A DNA stretch of 64,000 nt, taken from the IMG/VR virus record IMGVR_UViG_3300029305_004082; one strand, written 5' to 3'. How positions within the stretch are numbered: the stretch's first letter is position 1; every line of letters begins with the position of its first letter. This document shows positions 19,857 to 50,710 of the stretch, piece after piece. The DNA comes from a virus (taxonomy: Duplodnaviria > Heunggongvirae > Uroviricota > Caudoviricetes). Made by a program: the position numbers and the translations under genes. Under the pieces are notes generated by a model. The model had not been told where the DNA came from, made no database searches, and worked only from the letters and a program-made list of their open reading frames with translations.

Positions 19857-20072
19857 ATGAAAGTTGTTGATACGTATAACGTAAACCCTCACAGCAAAAT
19901 CTACGGGGTGGAGGTTGATGAAAACAAGTTTGTTGATGTATTCCACAATGAGCACACAGGGCTTATTTATGTAATGAATAATCACGATGGCACTTTAGTT
20001 TACGATAACGAAGGAAAGACATTCGATGCTGATGTAGACGAAGAAGAGATTTTTAAGAGTATTAAGGAATGA
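19857..20072 (+). CDS. hypothetical acidic small protein
   Basis: 71-aa ORF. Confidence 0.4.
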   Translation: MKVVDTYNVNPHSKIYGVEVDENKFVDVFHNEHTGLIYVMNNHDGTLVYDNEGKTFDADVDEEEIFKSIKE

Positions 20073-20075
20073 ATT

Positions 20076-20306
20076 ATGGATACTAATTACATTATGTTAA
20101 GAACAATTGCGGGGCTGATTTGTGACGCGATGGAAGAAGACTACTGGATGGAAGACAGTGCTTTGCTTGATGCATATGGAGAAATAGACAAGGGGGACGA
20201 AATGTCTTGTTCTTGTTGGATTGAAGACATGAGTAACAATGAAGCAAGATGTGTCCTTGAAATTAACGATGACAAATATTATATAGACATTATGCGTAGC
20301 AAATAG
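20076..20306 (+). CDS. hypothetical acidic small protein
   Basis: 76-aa ORF. Confidence 0.4.
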   Translation: MDTNYIMLRTIAGLICDAMEEDYWMEDSALLDAYGEIDKGDEMSCSCWIEDMSNNEARCVLEINDDKYYIDIMRSK

Positions 20307-20317
20307 GGGTTTGTGTT

Positions 20318-20566
20318 ATGGATTGGTACGAGGAAATCGCGAAAAGACTGTGCGAAGGCCGGATGCTTGATGTGTATTCGGACGGTTACGTAATCCTGTG
20401 TCGCAATGAATACGCTTCAAATCTTATGGCTGACCTAATAGAAAGCTTTTATTTATCCGATGGTGAGGAAGTGATTGTTAACACTGGTTACTTTGACCCC
20501 GATGAGGATGAACGAAATGGCGAAACCGACCGTTTTACTGGTTGGTGGTATGTGGATTTGGATTGA
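20318..20566 (+). CDS. hypothetical acidic small protein
   Basis: 82-aa ORF. Confidence 0.4.
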   Translation: MDWYEEIAKRLCEGRMLDVYSDGYVILCRNEYASNLMADLIESFYLSDGEEVIVNTGYFDPDEDERNGETDRFTGWWYVDLD

Positions 20567-20578
20567 TGGAGGTATAAA

Positions 20579-20881
20579 ATGATTGAGAAAACATTGCAAC
20601 TCACACTTCGCTTAAACGAAAACGGTTGGTTTGACGTAGATATATATGAGCTCGAAAGTGGAAGCTCCTTTCAACTAAACTATCCGTACTGCCCCGATGA
20701 ACACCCTGAGTTCAATGAGGACATTGGCGATGAAGTTTATTCGTGGCTTGGTATTATGGTGGAAGATTTGGAAGCACAGCTCACGGACGTTATTAATGCG
20801 AGGGAGAATTCGGAAGATTATCAGAGCCTTCTGGATGAAAGATATCTTGAAATCACAAACTTTTTGGAGGCGATAAAGTAA
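20579..20881 (+). CDS. hypothetical acidic protein
   Basis: RBS GGAGG; 100 aa. Confidence 0.4.
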   Translation: MIEKTLQLTLRLNENGWFDVDIYELESGSSFQLNYPYCPDEHPEFNEDIGDEVYSWLGIMVEDLEAQLTDVINARENSEDYQSLLDERYLEITNFLEAIK

Positions 20882-20884
20882 TTT

Positions 20885-21097
20885 ATGTCATTATGGGATG
20901 ATTTCGAAGCCGATGCCGCGTTTGTATGGGACTTTCCGTTCGGCATACCCTGCGACCACTGGACAACGCGAGATGGCACATTAATTCCTCTTGAAGAAAT
21001 GACAACATCCCACATACGAAACTGTATGCGGCTTGTTGGTGAAGATGATGCATGGTACGGACATTTCCAGAAAGAATTGGAAAGGAGAGGAGTATGA
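20885..21097 (+). CDS. hypothetical protein
   Basis: 70-aa ORF. Confidence 0.4.
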   Translation: MSLWDDFEADAAFVWDFPFGIPCDHWTTRDGTLIPLEEMTTSHIRNCMRLVGEDDAWYGHFQKELERRGV

Positions 21098-21324
21098 ATA
21101 AATATTATAGTTTGCTTATTCGTGGTGGCCGCGCCAGTTATCAAAGCTTTGATACTCTCACTGAATTAACCGAGGAGATTCGTCGTCATTTATCCCCTCG
21201 TGAAATAAATAGCGGTATTTTGGATAAACTCACAAACTTCGATATTCGACGCAAAGACGAAGATGGGCGTGTAGTAAATCATTACCAGAATATCGAAGCT
21301 GACTGCGTTTACTTTGATAAATAA
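21094..21324 (+). CDS. hypothetical protein
   Basis: Start MNKYYSL with RBS AAGGAGAGGAG. Confidence 0.4.
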   Translation: MNKYYSLLIRGGRASYQSFDTLTELTEEIRRHLSPREINSGILDKLTNFDIRRKDEDGRVVNHYQNIEADCVYFDK

Positions 21325-21408
21325 CCTACACAGGAGGTGTTGAAATGAATAACTACATTGTTGGCGGCGTGGCTTGCGGCTTTTGCGTTTAATGCGGGAG
21401 GTAATAAG

Positions 21409-21717
21409 ATGCTCAACTTTGAAAACTATCTGTGTTCTCAAAATGAAACTATCTACGGTTGTGCGTATAGGTTGCTGTGCGCAATGGCCGAGCCGGAAGC
21501 AGACCCATTTGAATCAAGAGATGAGATTATTCCTTGGGATGTAGGAATGATTGTTGAGGTTGTGGAGACAGCAGAAGCTGAACTGGAAAAGCGTGGAATA
21601 CACGCTTGCTATCCTTTCTACGATGATGATGATAAGCCCTGCTATTTGGGTAATGAATGCCAGAAACCTAACTGCCCTATAAAAAGGAGTGCCGCAAATG
21701 AAAATACTGCGTTATAA
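21409..21717 (+). CDS. hypothetical Cys-containing protein
   Basis: Start MLNFENY with RBS GGGAGGT. Confidence 0.4.
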   Translation: MLNFENYLCSQNETIYGCAYRLLCAMAEPEADPFESRDEIIPWDVGMIVEVVETAEAELEKRGIHACYPFYDDDDKPCYLGNECQKPNCPIKRSAANENTAL

Positions 21718-21985
21718 AGGCAAAATTGATTTTGATAATTGGGAAACAGATAGGATGTTTCATGTTGCTACTAATAAACAATATTTGTGGTCTTCAATTT
21801 GTGGTCATTGTATGCGCAAATATGGATTTACAAATGAATCGCCTGAGATTGATTATGATGCCGCAGGTGGAGTTTGTGGATGCTTGGGTTGCCAGCACAC
21901 AACTGAAAGGAATGAGTACCCTGGCTCTATGAGTTATATTGATTTCGATATGGAATTCGTGGAGGTGATTGAGATTGAAGATTAA
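21698..21985 (+). CDS. hypothetical Cys-rich protein
   Basis: Start MKILRYKG with RBS AAAAGGAG; CGHC...CGCLGC. Confidence 0.4.
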   Translation: MKILRYKGKIDFDNWETDRMFHVATNKQYLWSSICGHCMRKYGFTNESPEIDYDAAGGVCGCLGCQHTTERNEYPGSMSYIDFDMEFVEVIEIED

Positions 21986-22328
21986 ATATGGTGAGTGGGT
22001 TTATGGTGAATATGATATGCCGCACTGTTCGGAGTGTGGATATATGGTAACGCCGGATAAAATAACTTCTATGTGCCCCGAATGCAATACGGTTATGGAG
22101 GAAGATGATATGGATAAATTGGCGGCCGCCATTGAAATGGCACTGAACAAATACAGTAGTGATTATATTGACGTGGTATACAATGAAATGTTGGGCTACC
22201 TTGATGTAGTGTATTGCAGTGATAATAATTCATTCCCCATATTTGAAAATGTGGCTAATGTAGACGCAGTAGACAAGCATGAAGTAGCCAAGATGTGCGA
22301 CGATTATTATGTAGGGTTGGTGTGGTAA
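21969..22328 (+). CDS. zinc-ribbon protein
   Basis: Probable TTG start after GGAGGTG; CSECG...CPECN. Confidence 0.35.
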   Translation: MRLKIKYGEWVYGEYDMPHCSECGYMVTPDKITSMCPECNTVMEEDDMDKLAAAIEMALNKYSSDYIDVVYNEMLGYLDVVYCSDNNSFPIFENVANVDAVDKHEVAKMCDDYYVGLVW

Positions 22329-22541
22329 ATATGAATGATGAAAACAGAATTGTGTATGTATCTTATGACGGCGTAGTATTCAGTTCAAACACTGACTGTT
22401 CTGAGTATGAAGGTGATTCCGTAAAGGATATCGTTGGAACGATGGATAGGTTTTAGGAGAAGAAAATATATCTGCGGAAAAGTTTGATGAAGTTGGCAGA
22501 TGGTTTGAAAGTATGGTTTATAAGATAATGGAGGAAAGTTA

Positions 22542-22802
22542 ATGATTTCATTTTCTGATTGGAATGCACTGCTGCTCTACGCCGACGAACTGGAAGAAAA
22601 GTTTGCCGCCGACCACGGAACCAAAATTGTAATTCGCCCCTTCAACAACGTCATGTATGAAAAGTGTATGGCGATTTCTGTTCTGGACTATAAGGGCAAC
22701 GAATTCGGCAAACCCTATTTCACCGTCCCGCTCACCAACCTGCTGGATGGCAAAATAATAATGGCAGAAGCAATAGAGAAGATTGCGAAGTCACTTAAAT
22801 GA
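22542..22802 (+). CDS. hypothetical protein
   Basis: RBS GGAGGAAAG; 86 aa. Confidence 0.45.
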   Translation: MISFSDWNALLLYADELEEKFAADHGTKIVIRPFNNVMYEKCMAISVLDYKGNEFGKPYFTVPLTNLLDGKIIMAEAIEKIAKSLK

Positions 22803-22996
22803 AGACGTACCGCATAGATTACACAACAAGCACCGAGCCCGACAAGGTTCGGTGCGTTTTTATTAAGGCAGAAAGTATGGTGTTGGCAAAACACAAGGTT
22901 GCCAACATGCCATATTGTGACTGGATAGTAAAGAAAATTGAAGCCGATACTGAAAAGAACTACGAAGCGTGGAAGAAATCGTTCGGAGGTAAATGA
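22799..22996 (+). CDS. hypothetical protein
   Basis: 65-aa ORF. Confidence 0.4.
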   Translation: MKTYRIDYTTSTEPDKVRCVFIKAESMVLAKHKVANMPYCDWIVKKIEADTEKNYEAWKKSFGGK

Positions 22997-23283
22997 TGTT
23001 TGTCGTCATTGATTTAAAAACCGATTTGAAATATACAGTGTATGACGTAAGGGTGGATAAAAATGGATACCCCCATTTCCTTATCTATAAAAAAGACGAG
23101 TGGCTCTGGATAAGCGCCAAGCATTTCCGTCCTAAAAATGCATTCGATTAACAGGACAAAATCAGCTCTATTTCAAGAGTAAATGTTTAGACGACCAAGT
23201 TATCGACTAAGGTATGAAACAGGGCTATTTTGCCTAATTTTTCCCAACTGAGTATTCAAAAAATATAAACCAGGAGGTGCAAT

Positions 23284-23742
23284 ATGAGAACTGTAACCGA
23301 AACCATCTATGTAACCAAATATGAAGCGTACGACGGCACCAGATTTGATAATGAAAGTAGTTGCATTGAATATGAAAGAGATATAAAAGCGATACTGAAG
23401 GCGTGGGACGAAATACCCAAGCTCGTGTATAGCAATGAAAGCCTGCCGCTGAATTCCAGTGCAAGCGATGCTAACTTTATTTTGTGGTGCCGAAATGAAA
23501 ACGATATTGATGCCGCTAATGCGTACATAAAGGAATGCAGTGGAACTGATAGAAACTCTTTCCTTACTGATACAGATATTCACAGGCGTGTGATAATTTC
23601 TGTTTGGAATTACTACGATAGCAGAGACGGGTTTGGTGAAGGGACTACTCACTGTGGATATCCGGAGGATATACTTGAATCCTACAAAGAAATGCTGTTT
23701 GCGGCAATACCTGAAGAAATGGAAGGTGGATGGGATGAATGA
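23284..23742 (+). CDS. hypothetical protein
   Basis: RBS CAGGAGGTG; 152 aa. Confidence 0.45.
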   Translation: MRTVTETIYVTKYEAYDGTRFDNESSCIEYERDIKAILKAWDEIPKLVYSNESLPLNSSASDANFILWCRNENDIDAANAYIKECSGTDRNSFLTDTDIHRRVIISVWNYYDSRDGFGEGTTHCGYPEDILESYKEMLFAAIPEEMEGGWDE

Positions 23743-24220
23743 TGAATATTTTGGCGTAGTTCGTTGGTGTAAGGGTGACTTGGAATCCGCCCTTGAAGAC
23801 CACAATATAGCTGTTACAGAAAATAATATTGATAAACTGTTTGGCTTGGTTAACAACCGTTGGTTTACGGATTTTATGATTGAGCGTGGATGGGAATATA
23901 TCAATGAAATGTTCTATATGCATGACGTTGGTTGGGAAGAATACATTATCACGAAAGAAATGATAAGGAAAGAGCTTGAACAGAAAAATGGAACTATAAT
24001 TTTCAATAACGGATACACTGATATATGTTGTTGGATTGGAGACGACTTCGTTTGTCTGGATACAGACAATATGGATTCGGAGCAGTATGAAAGTGAAATA
24101 TCTCTCGATGATAAGGTCAATAATATATTTAATGCGTTAGAAGATTTAAAACACGACAAAGAAGAAGCGGAGCGATACGGCTATTTCTACAGAATATTGA
24201 CGGAGGGATATAATGAGTAA
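23735..24220 (+). CDS. hypothetical protein
   Basis: Start MNDEYFGVVRW overlapping the previous stop; 161 aa. Confidence 0.45.
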   Translation: MNDEYFGVVRWCKGDLESALEDHNIAVTENNIDKLFGLVNNRWFTDFMIERGWEYINEMFYMHDVGWEEYIITKEMIRKELEQKNGTIIFNNGYTDICCWIGDDFVCLDTDNMDSEQYESEISLDDKVNNIFNALEDLKHDKEEAERYGYFYRILTEGYNE

Positions 24221-24527
24221 GAAATGGAAAGATGAAATGAACATCAAGCCCTTTCCTTATACAATAATCACCAACCCTAAGCTCGCAGAATTTATTAGCA
24301 ATAATATGTGGTGGGGATGGTATTTGTCGGCCGATGGAAGTTATTGCTACTCATTTGGAAGATATATTCTTGCTGTTTTTATAAATAGCGACACCGGTGA
24401 ATTAGAAGTAACTGTTGATGATGTAATTACCGACAACAACGTTGCGTGGGAAACCATAGAAAATATCAAAAATCCTTATGAAATAATACGAGGACTAATG
24501 AGGAAATATTGCCTTGAACAAGCATAA
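24213..24527 (+). CDS. hypothetical protein
   Basis: 104-aa ORF. Confidence 0.4.
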   Translation: MSKKWKDEMNIKPFPYTIITNPKLAEFISNNMWWGWYLSADGSYCYSFGRYILAVFINSDTGELEVTVDDVITDNNVAWETIENIKNPYEIIRGLMRKYCLEQA

Positions 24528-24556
24528 ACATATTGCATTAAAAGAGAGGTAGCTAT

Positions 24557-24934
24557 ATGAGCAAAATGTTCATTGTATTATGGATGATTTTCTTCCATAT
24601 CGTAGATGATTATTATCTGCAGGGTTGGTTAGCCTCTTTAAAACAGAAACAGTGGTGGGAAGAAAACGCACCGCAGCCGAAATACAAATATGACTATAGT
24701 TGGGCACTGCTCATGCATAGTTTCAGTTGGGCATTTATGATTATGTTGCCCATTGCCGTAACAATGTCGTTTAATCTGGACAAGGTGTTTATAAGACTCT
24801 TTGTGCTCAATATATGTCTCCATGCGGTTATAGACGATATGAAAGCCAATCGTGGTCTTATAAATCTATGGCAGGACCAGCTCTTACATATAGCACAGAT
24901 AATTCTCACAGCTATTTTCACAATAGGGAGATAA
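24557..24934 (+). CDS. integral membrane protein
   Basis: 125 aa with about 3 hydrophobic helices. Confidence 0.45.
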   Translation: MSKMFIVLWMIFFHIVDDYYLQGWLASLKQKQWWEENAPQPKYKYDYSWALLMHSFSWAFMIMLPIAVTMSFNLDKVFIRLFVLNICLHAVIDDMKANRGLINLWQDQLLHIAQIILTAIFTIGR

Positions 24935-24939
24935 TTAAA

Positions 24940-25695
24940 ATGCGCTATTACGTTCTGGCCGACGTACACGGCTACTACACAAAAATGATAGACAAGCTTA
25001 CCGAGGTGGGGTTCTTTGATGACAAGGAGCCCCACAAACTTATTCTGTGCGGCGACATGATGGACCGTGGCAAAGAAGCTTGCAAGATGCAGGAATTTAT
25101 GTACAAACTCCTGTTGGAAGACAAACTGATATTCATTCGCGGCAACCACGAAGACCTTATGGTAAAAATGCTCGCGGAATTTCCAGAAAGAATGGATGAT
25201 ATTCTGTCGGGATATACGTACCATAATTCAAACCGCACATTCGACACTGCAGTGCAGCTCAGCAAAATGGGCAAAGCCGCCATACGCAACAACCCCTACG
25301 GCTTTATCCGCAAAGTAGCCAATTCTATTTATTGCAAAGACCTCATTCCCGCAAGCATTGATTATTTCGAGGCGCCGCATTACATATTTGTTCATGGCTG
25401 GATACCGCATTGGGGTAACGAGTATCATCACTACTGGCGTGACGCACAACCGCACCAGTGGCGTGAGGCAAGGTGGCACAACGGCATTGACTGCGCTATG
25501 ATGCAAGGCATCACCGAGCCCGGTAAAACCATTGTGTGCGGCCATTGGCATACATCGTATGCTCATTACTATTTTGGAAATCCGCCAGGACAGCAGGAGA
25601 ATTACGCTCCGTTCTATGGCGATGGAATTATCGCACTGGATGGATGTACTGCACTGAGTGGTATCGTGAATTGTGTTGTATTGGAGGACGATTAA
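24940..25695 (+). CDS. metallophosphoesterase (calcineurin-like Ser/Thr phosphatase / diadenosine tetraphosphatase family)
   Basis: DVHG, GDMMDRG, GNHE motifs; RBS AGGGAGATAATTAAA. Confidence 0.65.
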   Translation: MRYYVLADVHGYYTKMIDKLTEVGFFDDKEPHKLILCGDMMDRGKEACKMQEFMYKLLLEDKLIFIRGNHEDLMVKMLAEFPERMDDILSGYTYHNSNRTFDTAVQLSKMGKAAIRNNPYGFIRKVANSIYCKDLIPASIDYFEAPHYIFVHGWIPHWGNEYHHYWRDAQPHQWREARWHNGIDCAMMQGITEPGKTIVCGHWHTSYAHYYFGNPPGQQENYAPFYGDGIIALDGCTALSGIVNCVVLEDD

Positions 25696-25755
25696 TCACC
25701 CCTTTACAGCCCAATCAAAACATGATTTAATGAATTAACAGGAGGATTAATCGAC

Positions 25756-25965
25756 ATGAAAAAACAGGAATACATTGTCAAAAAGTACAACGAGCAGGGC
25801 TGTAATTATGATAATCTCTATTTTGACAACTACAAAGATGCATGGTCGCATACCAACAAGCGGGATATCATGCTTGTGTGCAAACCCGGCAGCGTTTACC
25901 ACGGCGATAACTTCCAAGGATGGACGGCTAAACCCAATGATATAATTAGGACGGTTGCACGATAA
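25756..25965 (+). CDS. hypothetical protein
   Basis: RBS CAGGAGG; 69 aa. Confidence 0.4.
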   Translation: MKKQEYIVKKYNEQGCNYDNLYFDNYKDAWSHTNKRDIMLVCKPGSVYHGDNFQGWTAKPNDIIRTVAR

Positions 25966-25996
25966 CCCACAGCCGCCCATAAAGGAGGATGATACC

Positions 25997-26272
25997 ATGA
26001 AAAACCTTGATAAACACGAATGGGATTTCAGCAAAGAAGAGATATATGCAATTAATTGGCTTGAATCTCATGGGTTTGATGTTGTTCTGAAAAAGCGGTA
26101 CATCTCTAAAGACATTTTTGAGGTCACACGGAACGGAATAAAGGATACTTTTCATCTGCCCCTTGGTGATAAGGATATCAAATACGCAGCCATAATGGAG
26201 CAATTCGATAAATCATTCCAAATGCACGAAGAAATAATACGGCTTCGAGAACAACTAAATGAACGGATATAA
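25997..26272 (+). CDS. hypothetical protein
   Basis: Start MKNLDKHEW with RBS AAAGGAGGATG. Confidence 0.4.
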   Translation: MKNLDKHEWDFSKEEIYAINWLESHGFDVVLKKRYISKDIFEVTRNGIKDTFHLPLGDKDIKYAAIMEQFDKSFQMHEEIIRLREQLNERI

Positions 26273-26275
26273 ATC

Positions 26276-26305
26276 CCATTGCCGCCCGTAGTGGCGGCTT
26301 TTTAA
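26276..26305 (+). terminator. rho-independent terminator
   Basis: GCCGCCCgtagtGGCGGC + TTTTTAATTT. Confidence 0.55.
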
Positions 26306-26321
26306 TTTAAAGGAGGTATCT

Positions 26322-26495
26322 ATGAATCGAGCAGAACATATGCGTACAACAGGCAAGGCGAAGATTGTGCAGGAACGACTGCACGAAAAAGGATTTATAT
26401 GTATAAGCGACACTTGGATGAGGTGGGCAAAGAAATACCTCAACCGCATCGACCGCAGAAAAATAAAGAATATTTATATAGATTTGGAAGACTGA
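26322..26495 (+). CDS. small basic protein (57 aa)
   Basis: RBS AAAGGAGGT; below the ORF-track size cutoff. Confidence 0.35.
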   Translation: MNRAEHMRTTGKAKIVQERLHEKGFICISDTWMRWAKKYLNRIDRRKIKNIYIDLED

Positions 26496-26608
26496 TTTCC
26501 AAAAAAGAAAATGCCGCTACCGGTGGTGCTTGGGGTAGCGGCTAAAAGGTATATGGGCAGTATCGTGCAGAACTGCTTGCCTTATTATACCATAATACGG
26601 CAAAATAA

Positions 26609-26890
26609 TCAAATCGAACGGCGAACATAGGAAGCTATTATTTCAATAAATTGCAACGAAGAAGGTGGCCCATCAAGCTTATATCCAGCTATATCGGATA
26701 AACGAGTTTTATCTACCTGTAAGTTCAAATCTACCGCTGTTGAAAAATAAACATCTCGCATCGCATTATCTAAGCGCGATTCATCTTCGACCACAAGACA
26801 TATGGCGTAAACAAGAGCTGTGAAACCACGGTAACACGGAGTAGCACCAAGGGTTCTGAGAATCTCGGCAATGTAGGACTTCATAAACAA
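26609..26890 (-). CDS. Spo0A C-terminal (DNA-binding, effector) domain homolog, standalone
   Basis: IAEILRTLGATPCYRGFTALVYAICLVVED...YFSTAVDLNLQVDKTRLSDIAGY...PPSSLQFIEIIASYV aligns with B. subtilis Spo0A-C ([23 protein letters not shown]...[23 protein letters not shown]...KPTNSEFIAMVADKL); no receiver domain; a lone minus-strand gene amid plus-strand genes, with its own terminator (hairpin 26507-26536 + T-run on the minus strand). Confidence 0.55.
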   Translation of the reverse strand: MFMKSYIAEILRTLGATPCYRGFTALVYAICLVVEDESRLDNAMRDVYFSTAVDLNLQVDKTRLSDIAGYKLDGPPSSLQFIEIIASYVRRSI

Positions 26891-26980
26891 ACCTTCCTTA
26901 AGGATTTTAGAAAATAATACGACAAAATTGGCGGTAATTGTAGAAAACCGTCAAAAATCGACATACGAAAGGAGCAAGCT

Positions 26981-27226
26981 ATGGAATACAGTATCGTTGG
27001 GTATCTTGGATACAAAGAAGGTGTTGGCGATTTGGTTTTTGAGGATGAAACACAGTTTGTTAACACGGCAAAAGCAGCCGTCGAATATTACAACAGGAAC
27101 GCATTAAAATACAGAGATGCCTGGTGGGGAATAGAGGAAAGTATTTTACAGGCATGTGCTGATAATGGTGTTAAAAACTATAGTTCGGACAGGCGCAAGA
27201 TACTCTTCAGTTCCAGTCTTTCTTGA
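26981..27226 (+). CDS. hypothetical protein
   Basis: 81-aa ORF with RBS AAAGGAG. Confidence 0.4.
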   Translation: MEYSIVGYLGYKEGVGDLVFEDETQFVNTAKAAVEYYNRNALKYRDAWWGIEESILQACADNGVKNYSSDRRKILFSSSLS

Positions 27227-27265
27227 GTTATAATATGAATAAGTAAACGGTAAGAGGTATAAAAT

Positions 27266-27670
27266 ATGATTATTATTCTCGGATTATTTGCGATGGCATT
27301 TCTTTTGAATGGGTTTCTTTCCGACGGTCCAAGCGAAAAAAGAGCATATGCGGAAGTAAAAAAGAATTGCCCGATGTGGAAGCGTGTTGGTTATTTGGAG
27401 AATAACCGAAGTGTGTCAGTGTATGAGATAAACGGTTACTTTTATTCCGCCGAAAATTACAATCCTCAGACAAACACCTATGAGAAATGCCATAAGGCTA
27501 CATGGATAGTTAGTGACAATTACAAGATTTACGACAACGACCTATATACCGCAACAATTATTATGCATGATGATAGGCATGAAGTTAAAAATGTAATCCT
27601 AAAAAATAAGACTAAAATGTGGTCGCGGAAATATTTCAGACAGGAGTGGGGCTGGGTCACATACGAATAA
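27266..27670 (+). CDS. membrane-anchored / secreted hypothetical protein
   Basis: N-terminal hydrophobic segment MIIILGLFAMAFLLNGFL; 134 aa. Confidence 0.45.
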   Translation: MIIILGLFAMAFLLNGFLSDGPSEKRAYAEVKKNCPMWKRVGYLENNRSVSVYEINGYFYSAENYNPQTNTYEKCHKATWIVSDNYKIYDNDLYTATIIMHDDRHEVKNVILKNKTKMWSRKYFRQEWGWVTYE

Positions 27671-27882
27671 CAAAAGAGAAAAGAAAAAGTAACCAAAAAG
27701 AAAAGAGAAAATATTAACTCTATGCTATTACTATAAAATATAGAGAAAATAATAACTCTATACTATTACTATAAAATATTATTAAACCAGCCGTAAAACC
27801 TCTGGCTTGAGCCATGAGGATATAAGGCAGCAGAAGAATATAGTATAATAACAATATCTTTAAGGAAGGAGACCTTAAAAGA

Positions 27883-29001
27883 ATGTGCGAGTACGCATAT
27901 AAATTTCGCATATATCCTACAGATAAGCAGGAACAGCAAATACTTCGCACATTCGGCTGCTGTAGGTATGTCTACAACTATTTCCTCGCGCTGAGGAGAG
28001 ATACGTACGCTGTGGAAAGCAAAACCATAAACTACAATGAGTGTTCCCGACAGCTCACTCTCCTAAAGCCTGCATTGCCCTGGCTGGAGGAAGTAGACGC
28101 AACAGCGCTACAGTCCTCTTTGAGGGCATTGGATACGGCTTATCAGAACTTCTTCGCCAAGATTAAGAAAGGGGAAAAGCCTGGCTATCCTCAGTTCAAG
28201 AGTAAGCGCAGCCCCGACCAGAAATACAAGAGCAAAAACAACAGAGGCACTATCAGAATCGAGGACGGCAAGCTCCGTCTGCCCCTGCTCGGATTTGTCA
28301 AGTGTCGCATATCCAGAGAAGTAAAAGGGCGCATACTCTCAGCTACCGTATCTCGCAATCCCAGCGGTAAGTATTTCGTATCCCTGTGTTGTACTGATGT
28401 AGAAATAGAGCCCTTGCCCCATACTGGTGCTATGGTAGGCGTTGATATGGGAATAAGCTCATATGCTGTCACATCTGACGGGATAGAGTATCCCAATCAT
28501 AAATACTTCGCCCAGTCTGAGAAACAACTGGCGCGACTGCAAAGGCAGCTCTCCCGAAAGACAAAGGGGAGTAATCGGCGCAGTAAGGCCAAAGCAAAGG
28601 TGGCAAGGCTCCATGAACACATACACAACCAGAGGCAGGACATGTTGCACAAGCTGTCTACACAGTTGGTAAGGGAATACGATGTAATCTGCATTGAGGA
28701 CCTGGCACCCAGCGATATGGTTAAGAACCACAAGCTGGCCAAGGACATATCTGACGCAGCATGGGGTGAGTTCAGAAGAATGCTCACCTACAAGGCGGAC
28801 TGGTATGGCAAAGAAGTGGTCACGGTGGACAGGTTCTTCCCATCAAGCCAGCTGTGCTCATGTTGCGGAGCAAAGTGGTCAGGAACCAAAGACCTCTCCG
28901 TAAGAGAGTGGACCTGCCCTGATTGCGGAGCACGTCACAACAGAGACCACAATGCAGCACTAAACATTCTCAACGAAGGTCTGCGCATCTTAGCAACGTA
29001 G
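27883..29001 (+). CDS. tnpB: TnpB (OrfB) RNA-guided endonuclease, IS605 family
   Basis: N-terminal YKFRIYPT...Q...L...FG..RYVYN (OrfB N-terminal HTH), Ruv[21 protein letters not shown], Ruv[14 protein letters not shown]-terminal CxxC...CxxC zinc ribbon. Confidence 0.8.
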
Positions 29002-29145
29002 ACTTAACATCAACGGTAGGGTAGGACATACCCGAACCTTCAACGCTCGGGGACACCGTGTAAGACCTCGCTCAATGCAGGCTGTGGCGAGCGAACCGAG
29101 AATCCCCTGGATTTATCCATGGGGAGTGTCAAATCACTATAGTAT
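29002..29145 (+). ncRNA. putative omega-RNA (reRNA) / right-end region of the TnpB element
   Basis: About 140-nt GC-rich structured sequence immediately 3' of tnpB with terminal hairpin; no ORF. Confidence 0.4.
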
Positions 29146-29162
29146 ATAAGGAGGTAAACAAA

Positions 29163-29393
29163 ATGAACAAAATGAGAAGGTCTGACATAGACGACTTGAT
29201 TACTGCTCTGGAAAAATTAAGAGAGAAGACCGAGGATATTCTGAGTGCGGAGCAGGACTACTATGACAACATGCCCGAAAACCTCCAATCAAGCAGCCGT
29301 GCCGATGCCGCCGAAGAAGCTATTAGCAATTTAGAGGATGCAATATCATCAATAGAAGATGCGATAGGCAGTCTTGAGGAGGCAAAAGCATGA
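29163..29393 (+). CDS. hypothetical acidic coiled-coil small protein
   Basis: RBS AAGGAGGTAAAC; 76 aa. Confidence 0.45.
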   Translation: MNKMRRSDIDDLITALEKLREKTEDILSAEQDYYDNMPENLQSSSRADAAEEAISNLEDAISSIEDAIGSLEEAKA

Positions 29394-30070
29394 GGGGAAC
29401 AACAGCTCCCCTCCTTTCTGGAAAGGTAATACAATTTCCAAAAAGGAAGGTATATAGTAAATCAACCACGGGATATAAATCCACCGGCGGCAGAGTCCCC
29501 CATGCCGCAGACCCGATTCCGCCAGAAGCCCTAAGCCGCATTAAGGATTACTTTTCTGGAAAAGAATTTGGCTTGCGCAACTGGACTTTTTTAATTTTTG
29601 GTATCAATTCGGGCAACAGATGCGGCGATATCGGCAAGTTGCGCATCGGCGATGTGGTAGGATTTGACGGCCAGATTAAGACTGATGTAGAATACATGGC
29701 ACAGAAAACCCGAACGTGGGAACACCTTTATATCCGCGATGAATTAAAGCCAGACATTGCGGCGTACATCAAAACATTACCAGACCAGTCGAGAGGAGCG
29801 TGGTTATTTCCAACAAAGACAGGTTGCCCGATGAGTTCAAAGACGTACTGGAAAATACTTAAAAAAACCAGTGAGGATTTGAATCTGGACTTTCACCTCA
29901 GCACACACTCAATGCGCAAAACATTGGGTAAAGCGGCTTACGAAACATATGGGATGGACGGAGCGAGGGAAATGCTTCGCCACAAGAACAATCAGGTCAC
30001 AGCAAGATATATTGGAGTCACAGAAGAAGCAGTTCGAGAAAAGGCCCTAAAATTACCTACAATCAAATGA
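29390..30070 (+). CDS. short tyrosine site-specific recombinase (catalytic domain)
   Basis: Box motifs: GNRCGDIGKLRIGDV (Arg I), HSMRKT (H-x-x-R), LRHKNNQVTARYIG (H...Y); 226 aa. Confidence 0.65.
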   Translation: MRGTTAPLLSGKVIQFPKRKVYSKSTTGYKSTGGRVPHAADPIPPEALSRIKDYFSGKEFGLRNWTFLIFGINSGNRCGDIGKLRIGDVVGFDGQIKTDVEYMAQKTRTWEHLYIRDELKPDIAAYIKTLPDQSRGAWLFPTKTGCPMSSKTYWKILKKTSEDLNLDFHLSTHSMRKTLGKAAYETYGMDGAREMLRHKNNQVTARYIGVTEEAVREKALKLPTIK

Positions 30071-30100
30071 CGGAGGCGGTAATCCCGCCTCCTTTTTTTG
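30071..30100 (+). terminator. rho-independent terminator
   Basis: CGGAGGCGGtaatcCCGCCTCC + TTTTTTT. Confidence 0.7.
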
Positions 30101-30194
30101 CGGAAAAATTTCTCATTGAGAAACAAATCTATCTGTAGTATAATAAAATACACCAAACAAATGTTCGATAATTTCTGGAAAAGGAGTCAAATAT

Positions 30195-31523
30195 ATGCAG
30201 AACATATCTATTAATTCCCTCAAACCCCATGAAAAGAATGATTACTTCTTCGATGATATGACGGGTTCCAAATGGTATGAATTTATTGAATCAATTCGTA
30301 CAAGCGGTGTAATTGAACCCATCGTTGTAACACGGGACTTCACCATTGTTTCCGGCCATCAGCGGGTCAGGGCGTGCAAGGAACTGGGTATTGAAGAAAT
30401 ACCTGCAAGGGTTAAGGATTACGCCGATGAAGATGCCATTATAAAGGACCTTCTGGAAACCAATGTGCGGCAGCGGGGTAACATCGACGGCAGCGCACTT
30501 AAGCTTGGACGCATTATTGCAGAGTTGGAAAGGATATACGGGATTCAGCATGGTAACAACCAGAGGACTTCCCATAATGGGAACTCCTCGGAACCTAAAT
30601 CACAGGACGAGTTGTTTGCTATGCTTGGTATAAGTTCAAGCTCTTACCATAGAGCTAAAAACCTTATTGAACTTATTCCTGAACTGCAGGATTCTCTTGA
30701 AGAAGGTTTTATTTCGGCTACCGCCGCTTCCAACCTTCTTGCCCGTCTTTCCAAAGAAGAACAGATTGCTGTATTTGCCGCCATGCCCAAGGATGTTAAA
30801 CTGTCTCAGCGTGAAGTAAAGGAATACATTGACGAAATTCGTGAGGAAGACGCAGAGGACTTTGAAGATATGCAGAAGCGTATTAAGCAGGCGAATTCCG
30901 AATTGGAAAAAGCTAAGGCAGAAATCCAGAATGCGAAACTTGAAGTTGCGCAGGTACGCCGCGAAATGGAGCGAGCTGACCGTGATGTTGCGGGAGAAGT
31001 TATGAATAAGCTGAATCTCTCCGAACTACAGCTTCGTGATGAATATGAGAAGCACGAGAAGACAAAAGTTCAGCTTCGTAACATAGCGTCCGAAAACTTC
31101 GAATTAAAAGACCAGAAGAGGAAAGCCGAAGCCCTGCTTGAATCCGCCCGTAAGAGGCTCGATGAACTTAAGAGTGTGGAAGAGTCCGGTCTGAGCATTG
31201 AAAACCAGAAGAAGATGGAAGAGCTCTTCAATCAGATTTCTCTTCTGGAAAAGAAATGCATGGAACTTGAGCGTGAAAATGAAGAACTCGCTGAAGCACA
31301 GCGTGCATATTGCTGTGATGTCGAGGAGCTTCTTAGATTTACCGAGAATGCTTGTAACGTAATTGATGCGTACTCCCGTGATGGCAGTACGATTGACCTT
31401 GTGGCGGCCAATCCCGAAGTAAAGCGCAAGGTAGAAACCCGAGTAAATACCCTGATTGATAGCGCAAAACGAATCATTAATTCTCTCTACGGTACTGAGT
31501 TCGCAGACATCGCCGTGGTTTGA
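30195..31523 (+). CDS. ParB-like nuclease-domain protein with long C-terminal coiled coil
   Basis: N-terminus PHEKNDYFF...EPIVVTRDFTIVSGHQRVRACKELGIEEIPARV (ParB N-terminal domain); C-terminal about 200 aa E/K-rich heptads. Confidence 0.55.
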   Translation: MQNISINSLKPHEKNDYFFDDMTGSKWYEFIESIRTSGVIEPIVVTRDFTIVSGHQRVRACKELGIEEIPARVKDYADEDAIIKDLLETNVRQRGNIDGSALKLGRIIAELERIYGIQHGNNQRTSHNGNSSEPKSQDELFAMLGISSSSYHRAKNLIELIPELQDSLEEGFISATAASNLLARLSKEEQIAVFAAMPKDVKLSQREVKEYIDEIREEDAEDFEDMQKRIKQANSELEKAKAEIQNAKLEVAQVRREMERADRDVAGEVMNKLNLSELQLRDEYEKHEKTKVQLRNIASENFELKDQKRKAEALLESARKRLDELKSVEESGLSIENQKKMEELFNQISLLEKKCMELERENEELAEAQRAYCCDVEELLRFTENACNVIDAYSRDGSTIDLVAANPEVKRKVETRVNTLIDSAKRIINSLYGTEFADIAVV

Positions 31524-31603
31524 TTTTTGTGCCAAAAAGTGCTATAATATAGGTGTAATCGAGGGTTGCAAGAGCGACCTAATTTTTATTTTTGGAGGTA
31601 CTA

Positions 31604-32422
31604 ATGGAAGTTAGTGCAAAAGGTTTTATCGCAATGGTAATTGTTGTTCTGCTTGTAGCAGGTTTGCTTCTTTCTATTGCAAATGTTCCTACTGGACACA
31701 CCGGCATTGTAGTAACATTTGGTAGGGTTGAGAATCGCACTCTGGAAAGTGGCATTCACTTTAAGCTGCCTTGGCAGAGGGTTGTTAAAATGGATAATCG
31801 TGTCCAGAAGGAAACCATACAGCTTGCCTGTTTCAGTTCCGATATCCAGGAAGTCAGCATGGTGTATACTATCAACTACCAGATAGACAGCAGTAATGCG
31901 ATGCAGATTTATCGCAATATTGGTAAGGATTATTACAACACAATTATTCTTCCCAACAGCATGGAATCCATAAAGGTAATTGCAGCACAGTATACCGCCG
32001 AAGAACTTGTTGGTGAACGCAGTAAGATGGCGCAGGATATCGAGGAAAATCTTGCCGCAAAGCTTAAGGATTACAATATTTATCTGGTAAGCACTTCTGT
32101 TGAAGATATGGATTTTACTGACGCATTTACTAATGCAGTTGAAGACAAGCAGGTTGCCGCACAGAATAAGCTGCGTGCCGAGACCGAAGCTGAACAGAAG
32201 ATTATCGAAGCCAACGCCGCCGCAGAAGTTCGCAAGGTAGAGGCAGAGGCAGAAGCTTTTGAGATTATGACTAAGGCAGAAGCAGAAGCGGCCGCCAACG
32301 AAAAGATTGCATCCAGTATTACGAACACCCTTATTGACTATGTTCAGGCAAATAACTGGAATGGCGAATATCCTACTTATTACGGTGGAAACGGCTCCCT
32401 GATTCTGAATGGACTTGAGTAG
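31604..32422 (+). CDS. SPFH/band-7 (stomatin/prohibitin/HflC-like) membrane protein
   Basis: N-terminal TM helix then GHTGIVVTFGRVENRTLESGIHFKLPWQRVVKMDNRVQ (SPFH core) and an Ala/Glu-rich coiled coil; RBS GGAGGT. Confidence 0.6.
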   Translation: MEVSAKGFIAMVIVVLLVAGLLLSIANVPTGHTGIVVTFGRVENRTLESGIHFKLPWQRVVKMDNRVQKETIQLACFSSDIQEVSMVYTINYQIDSSNAMQIYRNIGKDYYNTIILPNSMESIKVIAAQYTAEELVGERSKMAQDIEENLAAKLKDYNIYLVSTSVEDMDFTDAFTNAVEDKQVAAQNKLRAETEAEQKIIEANAAAEVRKVEAEAEAFEIMTKAEAEAAANEKIASSITNTLIDYVQANNWNGEYPTYYGGNGSLILNGLE

Positions 32423-40105: not shown

Positions 40106-41272
40106 ATGAATTATGTAACTTATCATCTGCATAGCGACAGAAGCCTTTTGGATAGCTGTACGCATTATAAGGATTATATAGATAAGGCGGTTGAATTGGG
40201 ACAACCTGCTATTTGCTTTACTGAGCACGGAAGGGTCTTGAACTGGGTAGCAAAGAAATTGTATTGCGCTGAAAAGGGTATAAAGTATATCCATGGTGTT
40301 GAAATATACCTTACAGAAACATTGGAAGAAAAAGTGAGGGATAATTACCATACCATCCTGATTGCTAAAAACTATGAGGGTGTTAAGGAAATTAACTCTC
40401 TGCTGACTCTATCGGAGCAACCCGACCATTTTTACTATAAAAATAGAATTACCTTCGATGAATTCTTAAATATAAGCGATAACATAATAAGTACATCTGC
40501 CTGTTTGGCAGGACCACTTAATAAACTTCATATTAGTCATCCTTACTATGAAAGGTTAGCTGAAAAATATACCTACTATGAAATTCAGCCACACAACCAT
40601 CCTGAACAAATAGCGTATAATCAGCTTCTTAAAATGCTTGCAAGAAAATACCGCAAGTCGCTTATTGCAGGAACTGATACCCACAGTCTTAATGATTATA
40701 AAGCAGAGTGCCGGAGCATTTTGCAGAAAGCAAAGCATATTGCTTATGCCGACGAAGATAGTTTCGACCTAACTTATAAATCATACGACGAACTTGTTGA
40801 TGCGTTTAGGCGTCAGAATTGTTTTGAAGAAAATGTTTATATAGAAGCTATTGGAAACACAGTAGTAATGGCTGAAAGTGTAGAGGACTTTGAATTAGAT
40901 ACAACCTTCAAATACCCTATGCTTTATGGTTCTTATGAAAAGGACGCCGAGGTATATGAGAAAAGGGTTGCAGAAAAGTTTGCTGAAAAGGTTGAGGCAG
41001 GAGTTATTCCCCAAGACCAGATAATAAATTTCCAGAAAGCGATAGACGAAGAGAGCGCCGTATTTGAGCAAATAAACATGAAGGGCTTTATGCTTTCAAT
41101 GAGCGAGTTTGTTTGTTGGTGCAAGGAAAATGGTATTCCTATCGGGTATAACCGTGGTTCTTGCGGCGGCAGCCGAATTGCTTACATTCTGGATATAACG
41201 GACATGAATCCAGAAACTTGGCATACTGTTTTTTCTCGGTTTGCTAATAGCTCACGAAAAGAAATTGGGGAT
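40106..41272 (+). CDS. dnaE: DNA polymerase III alpha subunit (DnaE-type), exon 1 (PHP domain)
   Basis: HLHSDRSLLD...FTEHG (PHP); ends ...FSRFANSSRKEIGD, aligning with E. coli DnaE FERFLNPERVSMPD. Confidence 0.75.
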
Positions 41273-42452
41273 TAAAACTAACGTTTATCTAACAACTATG
41301 AGTAATCAAGAATACAAAATGACGATTTCAAAGTCAGAAATCATAAGAATACATCAAGAAGAATATATGAATGGGATAAGCACTACTAAACTCGGTAAAA
41401 AATACGAAGTAAGTAGCGCATATTTTTCGAGGTGGTTTAAGAAACTTGGGCTACCTGTAAGAAATAACTCGGATAAATCAAGGAAGTATGTTTTCAACGA
41501 AAACGTATTTGAAAAAATAGATACCGAGGAAAAGGCTTACTGGCTTGGTTTCCTATACGCCGATGGCTATATTATGTCTCGTAGAAAGAACGGTAATCCC
41601 AAGGTGGGGATTACGTTGAGCGTGAACGATATAGGTCATCTCGAAAAATTTAGAAAGTTTGTAAGTGGCGACATGCCTATTAAGATTTATAAGCCGTCAA
41701 AAAGTGGTTATGAAGGTTCTGGTGATTATTGCCGAATTTTAATAACAAGCGAAAAAATGGCGTCCGACCTTATAAGGCATGGTGTGTTAGAGCATAAAAC
41801 AAATGTGCTTAAACCACCTAAACTGCCGCCAACATTTATAAAACATTTTATACGTGGTTATTATGATGGGGACGGAAGTATCTGGTGTCAGTCGAATAAG
41901 AGCGGTAAAGACACTCAATATTCCGTGGGATTTGTTGGCACAAAAGACATGCTTGAATTTATACAGCAGGAGTTAATGAGCCGAAGAATTTTGACCCGTG
42001 AATATCCCATGAGCCGCCGCAGGCCAGATAGTGATGTGTTGCAGTGGAAGTTTGGCGGAAATAATATTGTTATTGATTATTTGATGTATTTGTATTCTGA
42101 TGCCTCAGTTTATTTAGAAAGGAAGCTTAGAAAAGCAGACGGTTTAAAAACGTTAGCATATAGTCGTTTATAGTGGAAACATTATAAATTATTAGGCGGT
42201 GAATTGCTGGAAACTCCTTAGAGCCGCACAAACCACAGCATAGCGGGAAACTGCAGGTGCGACGGTTAGAAAATTGTGCGGATTGGACAATCAGCAGCCG
42301 AGCTTCGTACAGAAGAAGGTTCAACGACTATCCGGCCACGGAGTAGGGGAGACCCGAAGTACCGCCCACCCTAACGTAAAGGCGAGGGTGAAGATATAGT
42401 CTATGCCCAACCTGCAGGTTGTTAAAGTACCGCGAAAGCGGGGGTACAACAG
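41273..42452 (+). mobile_element. group I self-splicing intron in dnaE
   Basis: Starts right after exon-1 terminal U with a TAA stop; ends in G before the exon-2 codon ATA; splicing gives ...RKEIGD|IDIDASPDDRDK..., collinear with DnaE PDFDVDF; 3' part contains GC-rich structured core (…TCAACGACTATCCGGCC…). Confidence 0.7.
41298..42173 (+). CDS. LAGLIDADG homing endonuclease encoded in the intron
   Basis: Two LAGLIDADG motifs: YWLGFLYADGYI and FIRGYYDGDGSI. Confidence 0.75.
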   Translation: MSNQEYKMTISKSEIIRIHQEEYMNGISTTKLGKKYEVSSAYFSRWFKKLGLPVRNNSDKSRKYVFNENVFEKIDTEEKAYWLGFLYADGYIMSRRKNGNPKVGITLSVNDIGHLEKFRKFVSGDMPIKIYKPSKSGYEGSGDYCRILITSEKMASDLIRHGVLEHKTNVLKPPKLPPTFIKHFIRGYYDGDGSIWCQSNKSGKDTQYSVGFVGTKDMLEFIQQELMSRRILTREYPMSRRRPDSDVLQWKFGGNNIVIDYLMYLYSDASVYLERKLRKADGLKTLAYSRL

Positions 42453-50018: not shown

Positions 50019-50092
50019 TGCCCCATGGTGTAATGGAAGCACATCTGCCTTTGAAGCAGAAGGCCACCGGTCGGTACGGTGTGGGGCAGCCA
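50019..50092 (+). tRNA. tRNA-Gln (anticodon UUG); unusual T-loop
   Basis: Acceptor TGCCCCA/TGGGGCA, D-arm GTGTaatggaaGCAC, anticodon arm TCTGC-cTTTGaa-GCAGA, T-stem CACCG/CGGTG with loop GTCGGTA, G73 then CCA encoded. Confidence 0.6.
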
Positions 50093-50113
50093 TTTATTTT
50101 TTTGGAGGAAATT

Positions 50114-50619: not shown

Positions 50620-50627
50620 TACAGTGG

Positions 50628-50710
50628 GCGGATGTGGTGGAACGGCATACACAGCAGACTTAAAATCTGCCGGCGAAAGCTTGCGGGTTCAAATCCCGCC
50701 ATCCGCACCA
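50628..50710 (+). tRNA. tRNA-Leu (anticodon UAA)
   Basis: Acceptor GCGGATG/CATCCGC, anticodon arm GCAGA-cTTAAaa-TCTGC, long variable arm, T-arm CGGGTTCAAATCCCG, A73 + CCA. Confidence 0.75.

What the first reader, a model, noticed from the sequence alone, without database searches (positions are those of the whole stretch)
26609..26890. Standalone Spo0A C-terminal (effector) domain homolog on the opposite strand, a candidate sporulation-hijacking gene
This 93-aa protein aligns along its whole length with the DNA-binding effector domain of Spo0A, including the HTH region and the C-terminal sigma-A activating region. It lacks the phospho-receiver domain, so it would be constitutively active or act as a dominant competitor at 0A boxes. 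It is a lone minus-strand gene with its own terminator among plus-strand genes, which is moron-like. This implies a spore-forming Firmicute host and possible phage control of the sporulation decision.
Basis: partly seen in the sequence, partly recalled or inferred. Interest (0 to 1): 0.65.

Follow-up and report, generated by a model that had tools for sequence, protein, structure and literature searches.

The report
Phage Spo0A-like gene missing its DNA-reading helix
This small phage gene is a real relative of the DNA-binding half of the sporulation master regulator Spo0A, but this copy has lost, through a clean 51-base deletion, the helix that reads DNA, so it is most likely a crippled allele and not an active sporulation hijacker.

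Summary
The ORF is real. The likely start is the ATG at 26884, which gives 91 aa. It passes Pfam's Spo0A_C threshold (40.5 bits against a cutoff of 25), but only in two pieces.

Its closest relatives are all 108-111 aa. The window protein lacks exactly 17 residues (DVCNIERNIRTIIHRVW), a 51-bp in-frame deletion relative to near-identical sister phages. That segment aligns with Spo0A's recognition helix ([17 protein letters not shown] in 1LQ1/1FC3) and is the most conserved motif of the family. Of 266 family proteins examined, only this one lacks the helix while keeping both flanks.

In this phage species the intact allele is the common one: at least 67 contigs against 11 with the deletion.

"Aligns along its whole length including the HTH" is wrong, and with it the idea of competition at 0A boxes for this copy.

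Effector-domain-only spo0A genes in phages are already published. As a by-product, 0A-box cores (TGTCG) are strongly enriched upstream of phage Spo0A_C genes, including this one. This suggests that intact members are autoregulated or controlled by host Spo0A.

Best reading: a recent allele that cannot bind DNA and is probably null.

The parts
26609..26884 (-). CDS of 91 aa (stop codon TGA at 26611-26609). It is a Spo0A_C-family protein that lacks the recognition helix. The maximal ORF from the TTG at 26890 would give 93 aa.
   Evidence: It is identical to P0001, which was seen on 10 contigs.
26719..26720 (-). Junction of the 51-bp in-frame deletion, which removes 17 codons (DV[C/Y]NIERNIRTIIHRVW). 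There is no microhomology at the junction.
   Evidence: DNA alignment with L011/L012/L015/L016. BLAST breakpoints fall at 26720 and 26719. P0299 is identical to the window protein outside the gap.
26892..26899 (-). Ribosome-binding site AAGGAAGG, 7 nt upstream of the ATG.
   Evidence: Read directly from the sequence. Invariant in sister loci.
26957..26963 (-). 0A-box-like motif TGTCGAT inside the block TGTCGAnTTTTGnC, which is invariant in three diverged phages. L013 has a perfect TGTCGAA here. The motif lies just upstream of the RBS of the divergent plus-strand gene (ATG at 26981).
26918..26924 (-). Second 0A-box-like motif TGTCGTA, 39 nt downstream of the first. It overlaps a conserved TATTAT (26919-26914) that may be the -10 element.
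   Evidence: No sigma-70 consensus promoter was called here.
26499..26542 (-). Intrinsic terminator on the minus strand: stem GCCGCUACC/GGUAGCGGC, 12-nt loop, then AUUUUCUUUUUU.
   Evidence: Fold of -25.2 kcal/mol, z=-4.2. Conserved with compensatory pairs in L013 and L018.
26584..26612 (-). Strong promoter-like site TTGATT-17-TGgTATAAT whose -35 element overlaps the stop codon. Together with the terminator it delimits a candidate RNA of about 75 nt.
   Evidence: 10 of 12 matches, with TG. The -35 and the extended -10 are invariant in L013 and L018.

Best explanation
The gene is a recently arisen deletion allele of a conserved accessory gene of a roughly 110-kb phage of anaerobic Bacillota. 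The intact gene encodes a 108-aa protein that consists only of the Spo0A effector (DNA-binding) domain.

In the window's phage, a clean 51-bp in-frame deletion has removed the second helix of the helix-turn-helix, the recognition helix. In Spo0A this helix carries the base-contacting E-R-x-I-R residues. The remaining five-helix protein therefore cannot read 0A-box DNA in the normal way. It is most likely a loss-of-function (regulator-null) allele that the phage tolerates.

Inferred, not shown: intact family members bind 0A-box-like operators, including two in their own promoter and divergent-promoter region. Their expression or targets would then be tied to host Spo0A~P and/or to autoregulation. 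In this phage that circuit is broken on the protein side, while the boxes remain.
For: Shown:
- All close homologues are 108-111 aa. The window protein lacks exactly 17 residues.
- At the DNA level it is a 51-bp gap within otherwise near-identical sequence (89% mean column identity over four sequences, flanks included). P0299 is identical to the window protein outside the gap.
- The missing segment aligns to [17 protein letters not shown] of Spo0A in 1LQ1/1FC3 (E about 2e-7). It equals helix H57-74 of the AF2 model of P0002. That model superposes on 1FC3/1LQ1 at TM 0.85 and rmsd 2.1 A.
- E-R-N-I-R-T..A-W is the most conserved motif in 121 family members (E 119/119, R 119/119).
- Of 266 family proteins, only P0001 lacks the helix while keeping both flanks.
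- The AF2 model of the window protein drops to pLDDT 59-74 around the junction. Its match to Spo0A weakens to E 0.12, TM 0.67, rmsd 6.5 A.
- The intact gene is under purifying selection (dN/dS about 0.2 for P0002 against P0006) and keeps its position and orientation.
- The intact allele is the common one: 23 variants on at least 67 contigs, against 11 contigs with the deletion.
- The one variant of the deletion allele (P0287) carries G->W at a glycine that is invariant among the seven close relatives of alignment A2.
- Other disrupted alleles exist: a frameshift in L015 and a 3' truncation in L016.
- The deletion is not an assembly artefact. The same sequence occurs at 100% identity in at least 10 JGI and ENA assemblies.
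- 0A-box cores are enriched upstream of phage family members: TGTCG 12 observed against about 1.3 expected, with 0 of 2000 shuffles reaching that count.
Against: - The deletion is in frame and coincides almost exactly with one helix. The start codon, RBS, stop codon and terminator are all untouched.
- AF2 still predicts a compact five-helix protein (mean pLDDT 82), so a DNA-independent function is not excluded.
- The deletion genotype is found at 100% identity in many samples, so it is not obviously deleterious.
- Post-deletion divergence is too small to measure selection on the shortened ORF: 3 synonymous and 3 non-synonymous differences from L011.
- The frameshift and truncation alleles each rest on a single contig.
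- No DNA-binding or expression data exist for any family member.
Confidence: 0.7

Rival explanations
1. The helix-less protein is a selected, functional decoy. It keeps the scaffold and the helix that corresponds to Spo0A's sigma-A-contact region. It acts without binding DNA, for example by titrating host Spo0A, sigma-A or the full-length phage protein, as a natural dominant-negative.
For: - The deletion is in frame, coincides with a single helix (residues 56-72 against helix 57-74) and leaves all expression signals intact.
- AF2 predicts five packed helices, with pLDDT above 87 for residues 1-40 and 81-90.
- The genotype is widespread at 100% identity.
Against: - There is only one such architecture among 266 relatives.
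- There is no divergence since the deletion.
- The only variant has a radical change at a glycine that is invariant among the seven close relatives.
- Confidence at the junction is low, and the model superposes poorly on Spo0A.
- Of the sigma-A-activating positions that I recall for B. subtilis Spo0A (G227, S233, F236, V240; from memory), the alignment shows only S233 conserved.
Confidence: 0.14
2. The loss is adaptive. The intact protein is mainly a regulator of the phage itself, a repressor-like or decision protein acting at the 0A-like boxes in the divergent intergenic region next to the integrase/ParB module. Knocking out its DNA binding gives a variant with altered lifestyle, for example more lytic, that swept in the sampled communities.
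For: - It is a lone HTH gene placed divergently from the operon that leads to the integrase and ParB.
- The conserved box lies directly upstream of the RBS of the divergent gene.
- The family member in Faecalibacterium phage Aster also abuts the integrase.
- Several independent disruptive alleles exist, plus an IS insertion directly upstream in L011/L012.
- The deletion clone is found in at least 10 samples.
Against: - Intact alleles predominate.
- There are no data on lifestyle or phenotype.
- The JGI sample numbers come in runs, which suggests few independent projects, so apparent spread may reflect sampling.
- 0A boxes could just as well serve host Spo0A.
Confidence: 0.12
3. One reading: this protein is a constitutively active Spo0A effector domain that binds host 0A boxes and hijacks the sporulation decision.
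For: - Family membership is supported.
- An isolated Spo0A DNA-binding domain binds legitimate targets without phosphorylation (PMC3485338).
- The same hypothesis was put forward for phage homologues (PMC10294663).
Against: - The recognition helix, which carries the invariant E-R-x-I-R motif, is absent from this copy.
- 0A boxes are not enriched in the window as a whole: 5 observed against 7.9 expected.
Confidence: 0.03
4. The 51-bp gap is an assembly or sequencing artefact, and the real gene is intact.
For: None was found.
Against: - The same junction appears in 11 contigs from JGI and ENA assemblies made independently.
- There are no repeats at the junction that could collapse.
Confidence: 0.01

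Closest known systems
Spo0A C-terminal effector domain (Pfam PF08769; structures 1FC3 and 1LQ1)
   Same: The homology is clear: Pfam 40.5 bits for this copy and 75-84 bits for intact sisters. The family profile matches 1LQ1/1FC3 over the full domain. The sister model superposes at TM 0.85.
   Different: There is no receiver domain. In this copy the recognition helix of the HTH is deleted, leaving five helices instead of six.
Phage- and MGE-carried receiver-less spo0A homologues (Schwartz et al. 2023 mBio, PMC10294663; PF08769 enrichment in gut Firmicutes mobile elements, PMC6907783)
   Same: It is an effector-domain-only protein encoded by a phage of gut or anaerobic Bacillota. The family is large: 2993 representative clusters, mostly 105-140 aa.
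   Different: [quoted passage not shown] This allele lacks the DNA-reading helix. No member has been tested experimentally in the papers found.
Host-Spo0A sensing by phages through 0A boxes in phage promoters (phi29 paradigm; recalled from memory, not checked here)
   Same: 0A-box-like motifs sit in a phage regulatory region (26918-26963). They are conserved in relatives and enriched upstream of family genes.
   Different: Here the boxes precede a phage gene that itself encodes a Spo0A-type DNA-binding domain, so autoregulation is an equally good reading. Binding has not been tested.

Membership tests
Pfam PF08769 Spo0A_C | Profile match above the curated gathering score | tested here: met
   40.5 bits against a cutoff of 25, E=3e-10, but in two stretches; the best covers residues 5-54 and profile positions 1-50 of 104.
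Pfam PF08769 Spo0A_C | Complete six-helix domain including the HTH recognition helix (Spo0A residues about 208-224) | tested here: not met
   Seventeen residues are absent relative to all 108-111-aa relatives. They align to [17 protein letters not shown] of 1LQ1. The family HMM skips these positions. The model has 5 helices against 6 in the sister.
Pfam PF08769 Spo0A_C | Fold similarity to solved Spo0A C-domains | tested here: inconclusive
   The window model's best hits are 1LQ1/1FC3, but at E 0.12-0.17, TM 0.66-0.68 and rmsd about 6.5 A. The intact sister gives E 1.5e-4, TM 0.85 and rmsd 2.1 A.
Bona fide Spo0A (NCBIfam TIGR02875, response regulator) | N-terminal phospho-receiver domain plus effector domain, scoring above the equivalog cutoff | tested here: not met
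   14.2 bits against a cutoff of 200. Only residues 3-52 match, to profile positions 150-199. The protein is 91 aa.
Phage-carried truncated spo0A (as in PMC10294663) | Effector-domain-only homologue encoded in a phage genome | tested here: met
   The window carries phage replication genes: DnaB, a DnaE-type polymerase, NrdD, ParB and recombinases. The same gene lies on 110-116-kb phage contigs.
Phage-carried truncated spo0A (as in PMC10294663) | Retains the DNA-binding function of the effector domain (0A-box binding) | not testable with these tools
   Sequence argues against it for this allele, since the recognition helix is deleted. An EMSA is needed.
Moron (independently expressed accessory gene) | Own terminator, and an orientation independent of the flanking operons | tested here: met
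   Opposite strand to all neighbours. Conserved hairpin plus U-run.
Moron (independently expressed accessory gene) | Own promoter | tested here: inconclusive
   The scan found no sigma-70 consensus upstream. A conserved TATTAT and 0A-like boxes are present.
Moron (independently expressed accessory gene) | Sporadic presence or absence among related phages | tested here: not met
   The gene keeps the same position and orientation in relatives whose copy is only 56-64% identical to the window protein (L013, L018).

The most novel reading that the evidence does not exclude
The precise in-frame removal of only the recognition helix produced a selected 'anti-Spo0A_C'. This would be a folded five-helix protein that no longer binds DNA but still engages the partners of the domain: host Spo0A, sigma-A or the intact phage regulator. 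It would then be a natural dominant-negative that rewires how the phage responds to the host's sporulation state. Near-isogenic phages with the 108-aa and 91-aa alleles coexist in nature and would form a ready-made allelic series.
Probability: 0.12. Interest if true: 0.6.

Novelty: new member of a known kind. Interest (0 to 1): 0.33.

Why it matters
Receiver-less spo0A genes in phages were proposed in 2023 as tools for controlling host dormancy, but none has been tested. This locus does not add a new kind of system, and the copy in the window is most likely defective. It still offers two practical handles.

1. Natural near-isogenic phage genomes carry the intact allele (108 aa), the helix-less allele (91 aa), a frameshifted allele and a 3'-truncated allele. 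This is an allelic series for asking what the protein does.
2. 0A-box cores are conserved upstream of this gene and enriched upstream of phage Spo0A_C genes in general. This predicts a concrete and testable circuit: control by host Spo0A~P and/or autoregulation.

The case is also a caution for annotation. A Pfam hit above threshold can hide the loss of the one element that the inferred function depends on.

Tried and rejected
- A megablast of window 20000-32000 against INPHARED phages found nothing.
- A phmmer search of the 91-aa protein against PDB sequences found nothing; the family profile was needed.
- Narrow family patterns found no relatives in GTDB genomes or in IMG/VR. A DnaB query in GTDB genomes also found nothing. 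The host could therefore not be assigned through a prophage.
- A tblastn of P0002 against PLSDB plasmids found nothing.
- Cluster look-ups gave no organism names. P0007 is not on record.
- The consensus 0A box is not enriched in the whole window: 5 observed against 7.9 expected.
- There is no relocated copy of the deleted 51 bp and no second family gene in the 64-kb window. One weak out-of-frame hit inside the Metallophos gene was judged to be chance.
- Pfam found nothing informative in ten neighbouring ORFs.
- I first read the four alleles in the loci at hand as decay of the gene across the whole phage species. I withdrew this after the cluster listing showed that intact alleles predominate.
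- I looked for microhomology or direct repeats at the deletion junction. A nearby GGTAGAT repeat does not match the breakpoints.

Full report
**The feature**

The window holds an ORF at 26609..26890 on the minus strand. The Shine-Dalgarno sequence AAGGAAGG (26899-26892) lies 7 nt before the ATG at 26884 and only 1 nt before the TTG at 26890. The product is therefore most likely 91 aa, MKSYIAEIL...VRRSI. This is the same sequence that gene callers gave for P0001 in public assemblies.

All neighbouring genes are on the plus strand. Downstream on the minus strand there is a 9-bp GC-rich hairpin (26513-26542) followed by AUUUUCUUUUUU. It folds at -25.2 kcal/mol, z=-4.2. It is conserved with compensatory base-pair changes in two diverged relatives.

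**Homology**

- Pfam Spo0A_C (PF08769) matches at E=3e-10 and 40.5 bits, against a gathering score of 25. The match comes in two stretches, the best covering residues 5-54 and profile positions 1-50 of 104.
- The NCBIfam equivalog for real Spo0A scores 14 bits against a cutoff of 200. This is not a Spo0A orthologue, and it has no receiver domain.
- PHROGs gives only a family of unknown function.

**The key observation: a missing helix**

A search of 5.8 billion proteins returned close relatives of 108-111 aa. Laid side by side, the window protein lacks exactly 17 residues, DV[Y/C]NIERNIRTIIHRVW.

At the DNA level this is a clean 51-bp gap in sequence that is otherwise almost identical to sister phage contigs L011/L012. 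The breakpoints fall at window 26720 and 26719. There is no microhomology at the junction. One intact variant, P0299, is identical to the window protein at every other residue, so the deletion is very recent.

It is not an assembly artefact. Eleven contigs from JGI and ENA assemblies carry it, and ten of them were fetched as loci. Nine of those are 100% identical to the window over up to 5 kb, and the tenth (L001) is 99.8% identical.

**What was deleted**

- A profile of the family matches the solved Spo0A C-domains 1LQ1 (DNA complex) and 1FC3 over the whole domain, with E about 2e-7. The missing segment aligns to [17 protein letters not shown], the second (recognition) helix of the helix-turn-helix.
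- The intact sister P0002 scores 75 bits over Pfam profile positions 1-103 of 104.
- AlphaFold2 with a 118-sequence alignment gives P0002 pLDDT 97.5 and six helices. H57-74 is the deleted one. The model superposes on 1FC3/1LQ1 at TM 0.85 and rmsd 2.1 A.
- The window protein gives pLDDT 82, falling to 59-74 around the junction, and five helices. Its match to Spo0A is only weak: E 0.12, TM 0.67, rmsd 6.5 A.
- In an alignment of 121 family members, V-E-R-N-I-R-T..A-W is the most conserved block (E 119/119, R 119/119). Only the window protein and a frameshifted fragment lack it.
- Among 266 family proteins from two searches, P0001 is the only one that has both flanks but no helix.
- A family HMM run against all six-frame ORFs of the window confirms the split match. 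It finds no second, intact copy. The deleted 51 bp are not elsewhere in the window.

**Population picture**

The 90%-identity cluster around the intact allele holds 23 protein variants, all listed ones 108 aa. They lie on at least 67 contigs, including phage genomes of 110-116 kb. The deletion allele is on 11 contigs: P0001 on 10 and P0287 on 1. P0287 differs by G->W at a glycine that is invariant among the seven close relatives of alignment A2.

Two other disrupted alleles exist, each on a single contig. One has an extra T in a T-run, which gives a 60-aa product (L015). The other has a deletion of the 3' end, which gives a 173-aa read-through product (L016). In L011/L012 the ORF is intact, but a TnpB insertion element has replaced the sequence directly upstream.

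From the loci I had at first, I read this pattern as decay of the gene across the species. The cluster listing shows instead that the intact gene is the norm and the window allele is a derived minority variant.

Across more distant relatives the gene is under purifying selection: dN/dS is about 0.2 for P0002 against P0006, with dS near saturation. It also keeps its position and opposite-strand orientation between a metallophosphoesterase gene and a module of small ORFs, a tyrosine recombinase and ParB.

**Context and host**

The window is the replication and nucleotide-metabolism region of a large phage. It carries:

- a DnaB-like helicase;
- a DnaE-type polymerase;
- a DNA methyltransferase;
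- anaerobic ribonucleotide reductase NrdD;
- ParB;
- a tyrosine recombinase and a large serine recombinase;
- a TnpB element;
- three tRNAs.

It has no near relative in INPHARED at the DNA level. The polymerase is closest to the 132-134-kb Clostridioides difficile phages LIBA2945/LIBA6276 (48% identity) and to large Bacillus phages. NrdD is closest to Thomasclavelia ramosa phages.

The host is therefore probably an anaerobic member of the Bacillota. I could not assign it, and whether it sporulates is unknown. A family member also occurs in Faecalibacterium phage Aster, next to the integrase. To my knowledge that host genus is not known to sporulate, so carrying a Spo0A_C gene does not prove a sporulating host.

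**What is already known**

- Schwartz et al. (mBio 2023, PMC10294663) reported that gut phages carry truncated spo0A homologues containing only the DNA-binding effector domain. They proposed that these act without host signals.
- Jiang et al. (PMC6907783) found PF08769 enriched in mobile elements of gut Firmicutes.
- The isolated Spo0A DNA-binding domain binds genuine targets without phosphorylation (PMC3485338).
- The exhaustive search here found 2993 representative clusters, mostly 105-140 aa.

**A by-product that bears on mechanism**

The 90-bp divergent intergenic region upstream of the gene contains TGTCGAT (26963-26957) and TGTCGTA (26924-26918) on the gene's strand. Each matches 6 of the 7 positions of the 0A box TGTCGAA.

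In the otherwise poorly alignable upstream regions of L013 and L018, the block TGTCGAnTTTTGnC is invariant, and L013 has a perfect TGTCGAA.

I fetched 23 further family loci from IMG/VR and took one representative of each of 15 lineages. In the 130 nt upstream, on the sense strand:

| Motif | Observed | Expected | Shuffles reaching the observed count |
|---|---|---|---|
| TGTCG | 12 | 1.3-1.5 | 0 of 2000 |
| TTTGTCG | 6 | 0.1-0.2 | 0 of 2000 |
| TGTCGAA (a-priori motif) | 3 | 0.17 | 3 of 2000 |

In several lineages the TGTCGA core sits 69-76 nt before the start codon.

Two caveats apply. The shorter cores were chosen after I had seen the sequences. The lineages were also de-replicated by eye.

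The pattern suggests that intact family members are autoregulated at 0A-like operators and/or placed under host Spo0A~P. Neither has been tested.

**Mechanism, as far as it can be stated**

- Shown: this copy lacks the helix that carries the family's invariant E-R-x-I-R motif.
- From established knowledge of HTH proteins and the Spo0A-DNA complex: without that helix, sequence-specific binding in the major groove is lost.
- Inferred: the allele is null for the regulator's DNA-dependent function, and the phage tolerates this.

Not excluded are a DNA-independent decoy role and an adaptive loss that changes the phage's lifestyle. The in-frame, helix-precise nature of the deletion and the wide occurrence of the clone are the points in favour of those readings. 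Against them stand the lack of any divergence since the deletion, the uniqueness of the architecture and the low model confidence at the junction.

**Verdict**

The gene is a new, probably defective, member of a known kind. Interest is modest. It comes mainly from the natural allelic series and from the association with 0A boxes.

Noticed in passing
window 26499-26612, minus strand: A strong promoter-like site (TTGATT-17-TGgTATAAT) has its -35 element over the stop codon of the Spo0A_C gene. It is followed about 35-40 nt later by the conserved terminator. The -35, the extended -10 and the terminator stem are conserved in L013 and L018, while the body between them varies. This is a candidate small RNA of about 75 nt. 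Rfam has no match at gathering threshold.
   Followed up: partly
window 40106-44408, plus strand: The phage DnaE-type DNA polymerase III alpha gene is interrupted. Its parts, in order: a PHP and NTPase N-terminal part (40106-41275); a LAGLIDADG endonuclease ORF (41241-42173); an Rfam group I intron at 42144-42423 (87 bits); and the C-terminal end of the NTPase domain plus the finger domain (42681-44408). NTPase profile positions 104-188 are unaccounted for.
   Followed up: partly
window 27883-29001 (+); L011 3682-4821 and 5559-6677: TnpB (IS605 OrfB / Cas12f-like) elements sit at different sites in phage strains that are about 96% identical. The window copy is absent from that site in L011. 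L011 instead has a copy of the same element (about 96% identical in DNA) just downstream of the Spo0A_C terminator, and a different TnpB directly upstream of the gene. This points to active transposition around the locus.
   Followed up: partly
upstream regions of L013, L018, L021, L024, L027, L028, L033-L036: 0A-box-like TGTCG / TTTGTCG motifs recur upstream of phage standalone Spo0A_C genes. They often occur in two or three copies about 10-11 or about 40 nt apart.
   Followed up: yes
proteins P0122 (439 aa), P0123 (454 aa), P0226 (849 aa): Some proteins in the representative library contain 4-5 tandem Spo0A_C-like domains. I did not look at this architecture further.
   Followed up: no
L017 3794-4312 (Faecalibacterium phage Aster orf27): This 172-aa hypothetical protein has a Spo0A_C-like C-terminal half (31% identity to P0002). 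It lies convergent with, and directly next to, the integrase of a temperate phage. To my knowledge the host genus is not known to sporulate.
   Followed up: partly
window 50019-50788: Three tRNA genes (Gln-TTG, Leu-TAA, Thr-TGT) are clustered in the phage genome.
   Followed up: no
P0287 (single 3.5-kb JGI contig): The only sequence variant of the deletion allele has Trp in place of the glycine of the LDGPPS motif, which is invariant among the seven close relatives of alignment A2. This fits relaxed constraint after the deletion, but it rests on one contig.
   Followed up: partly
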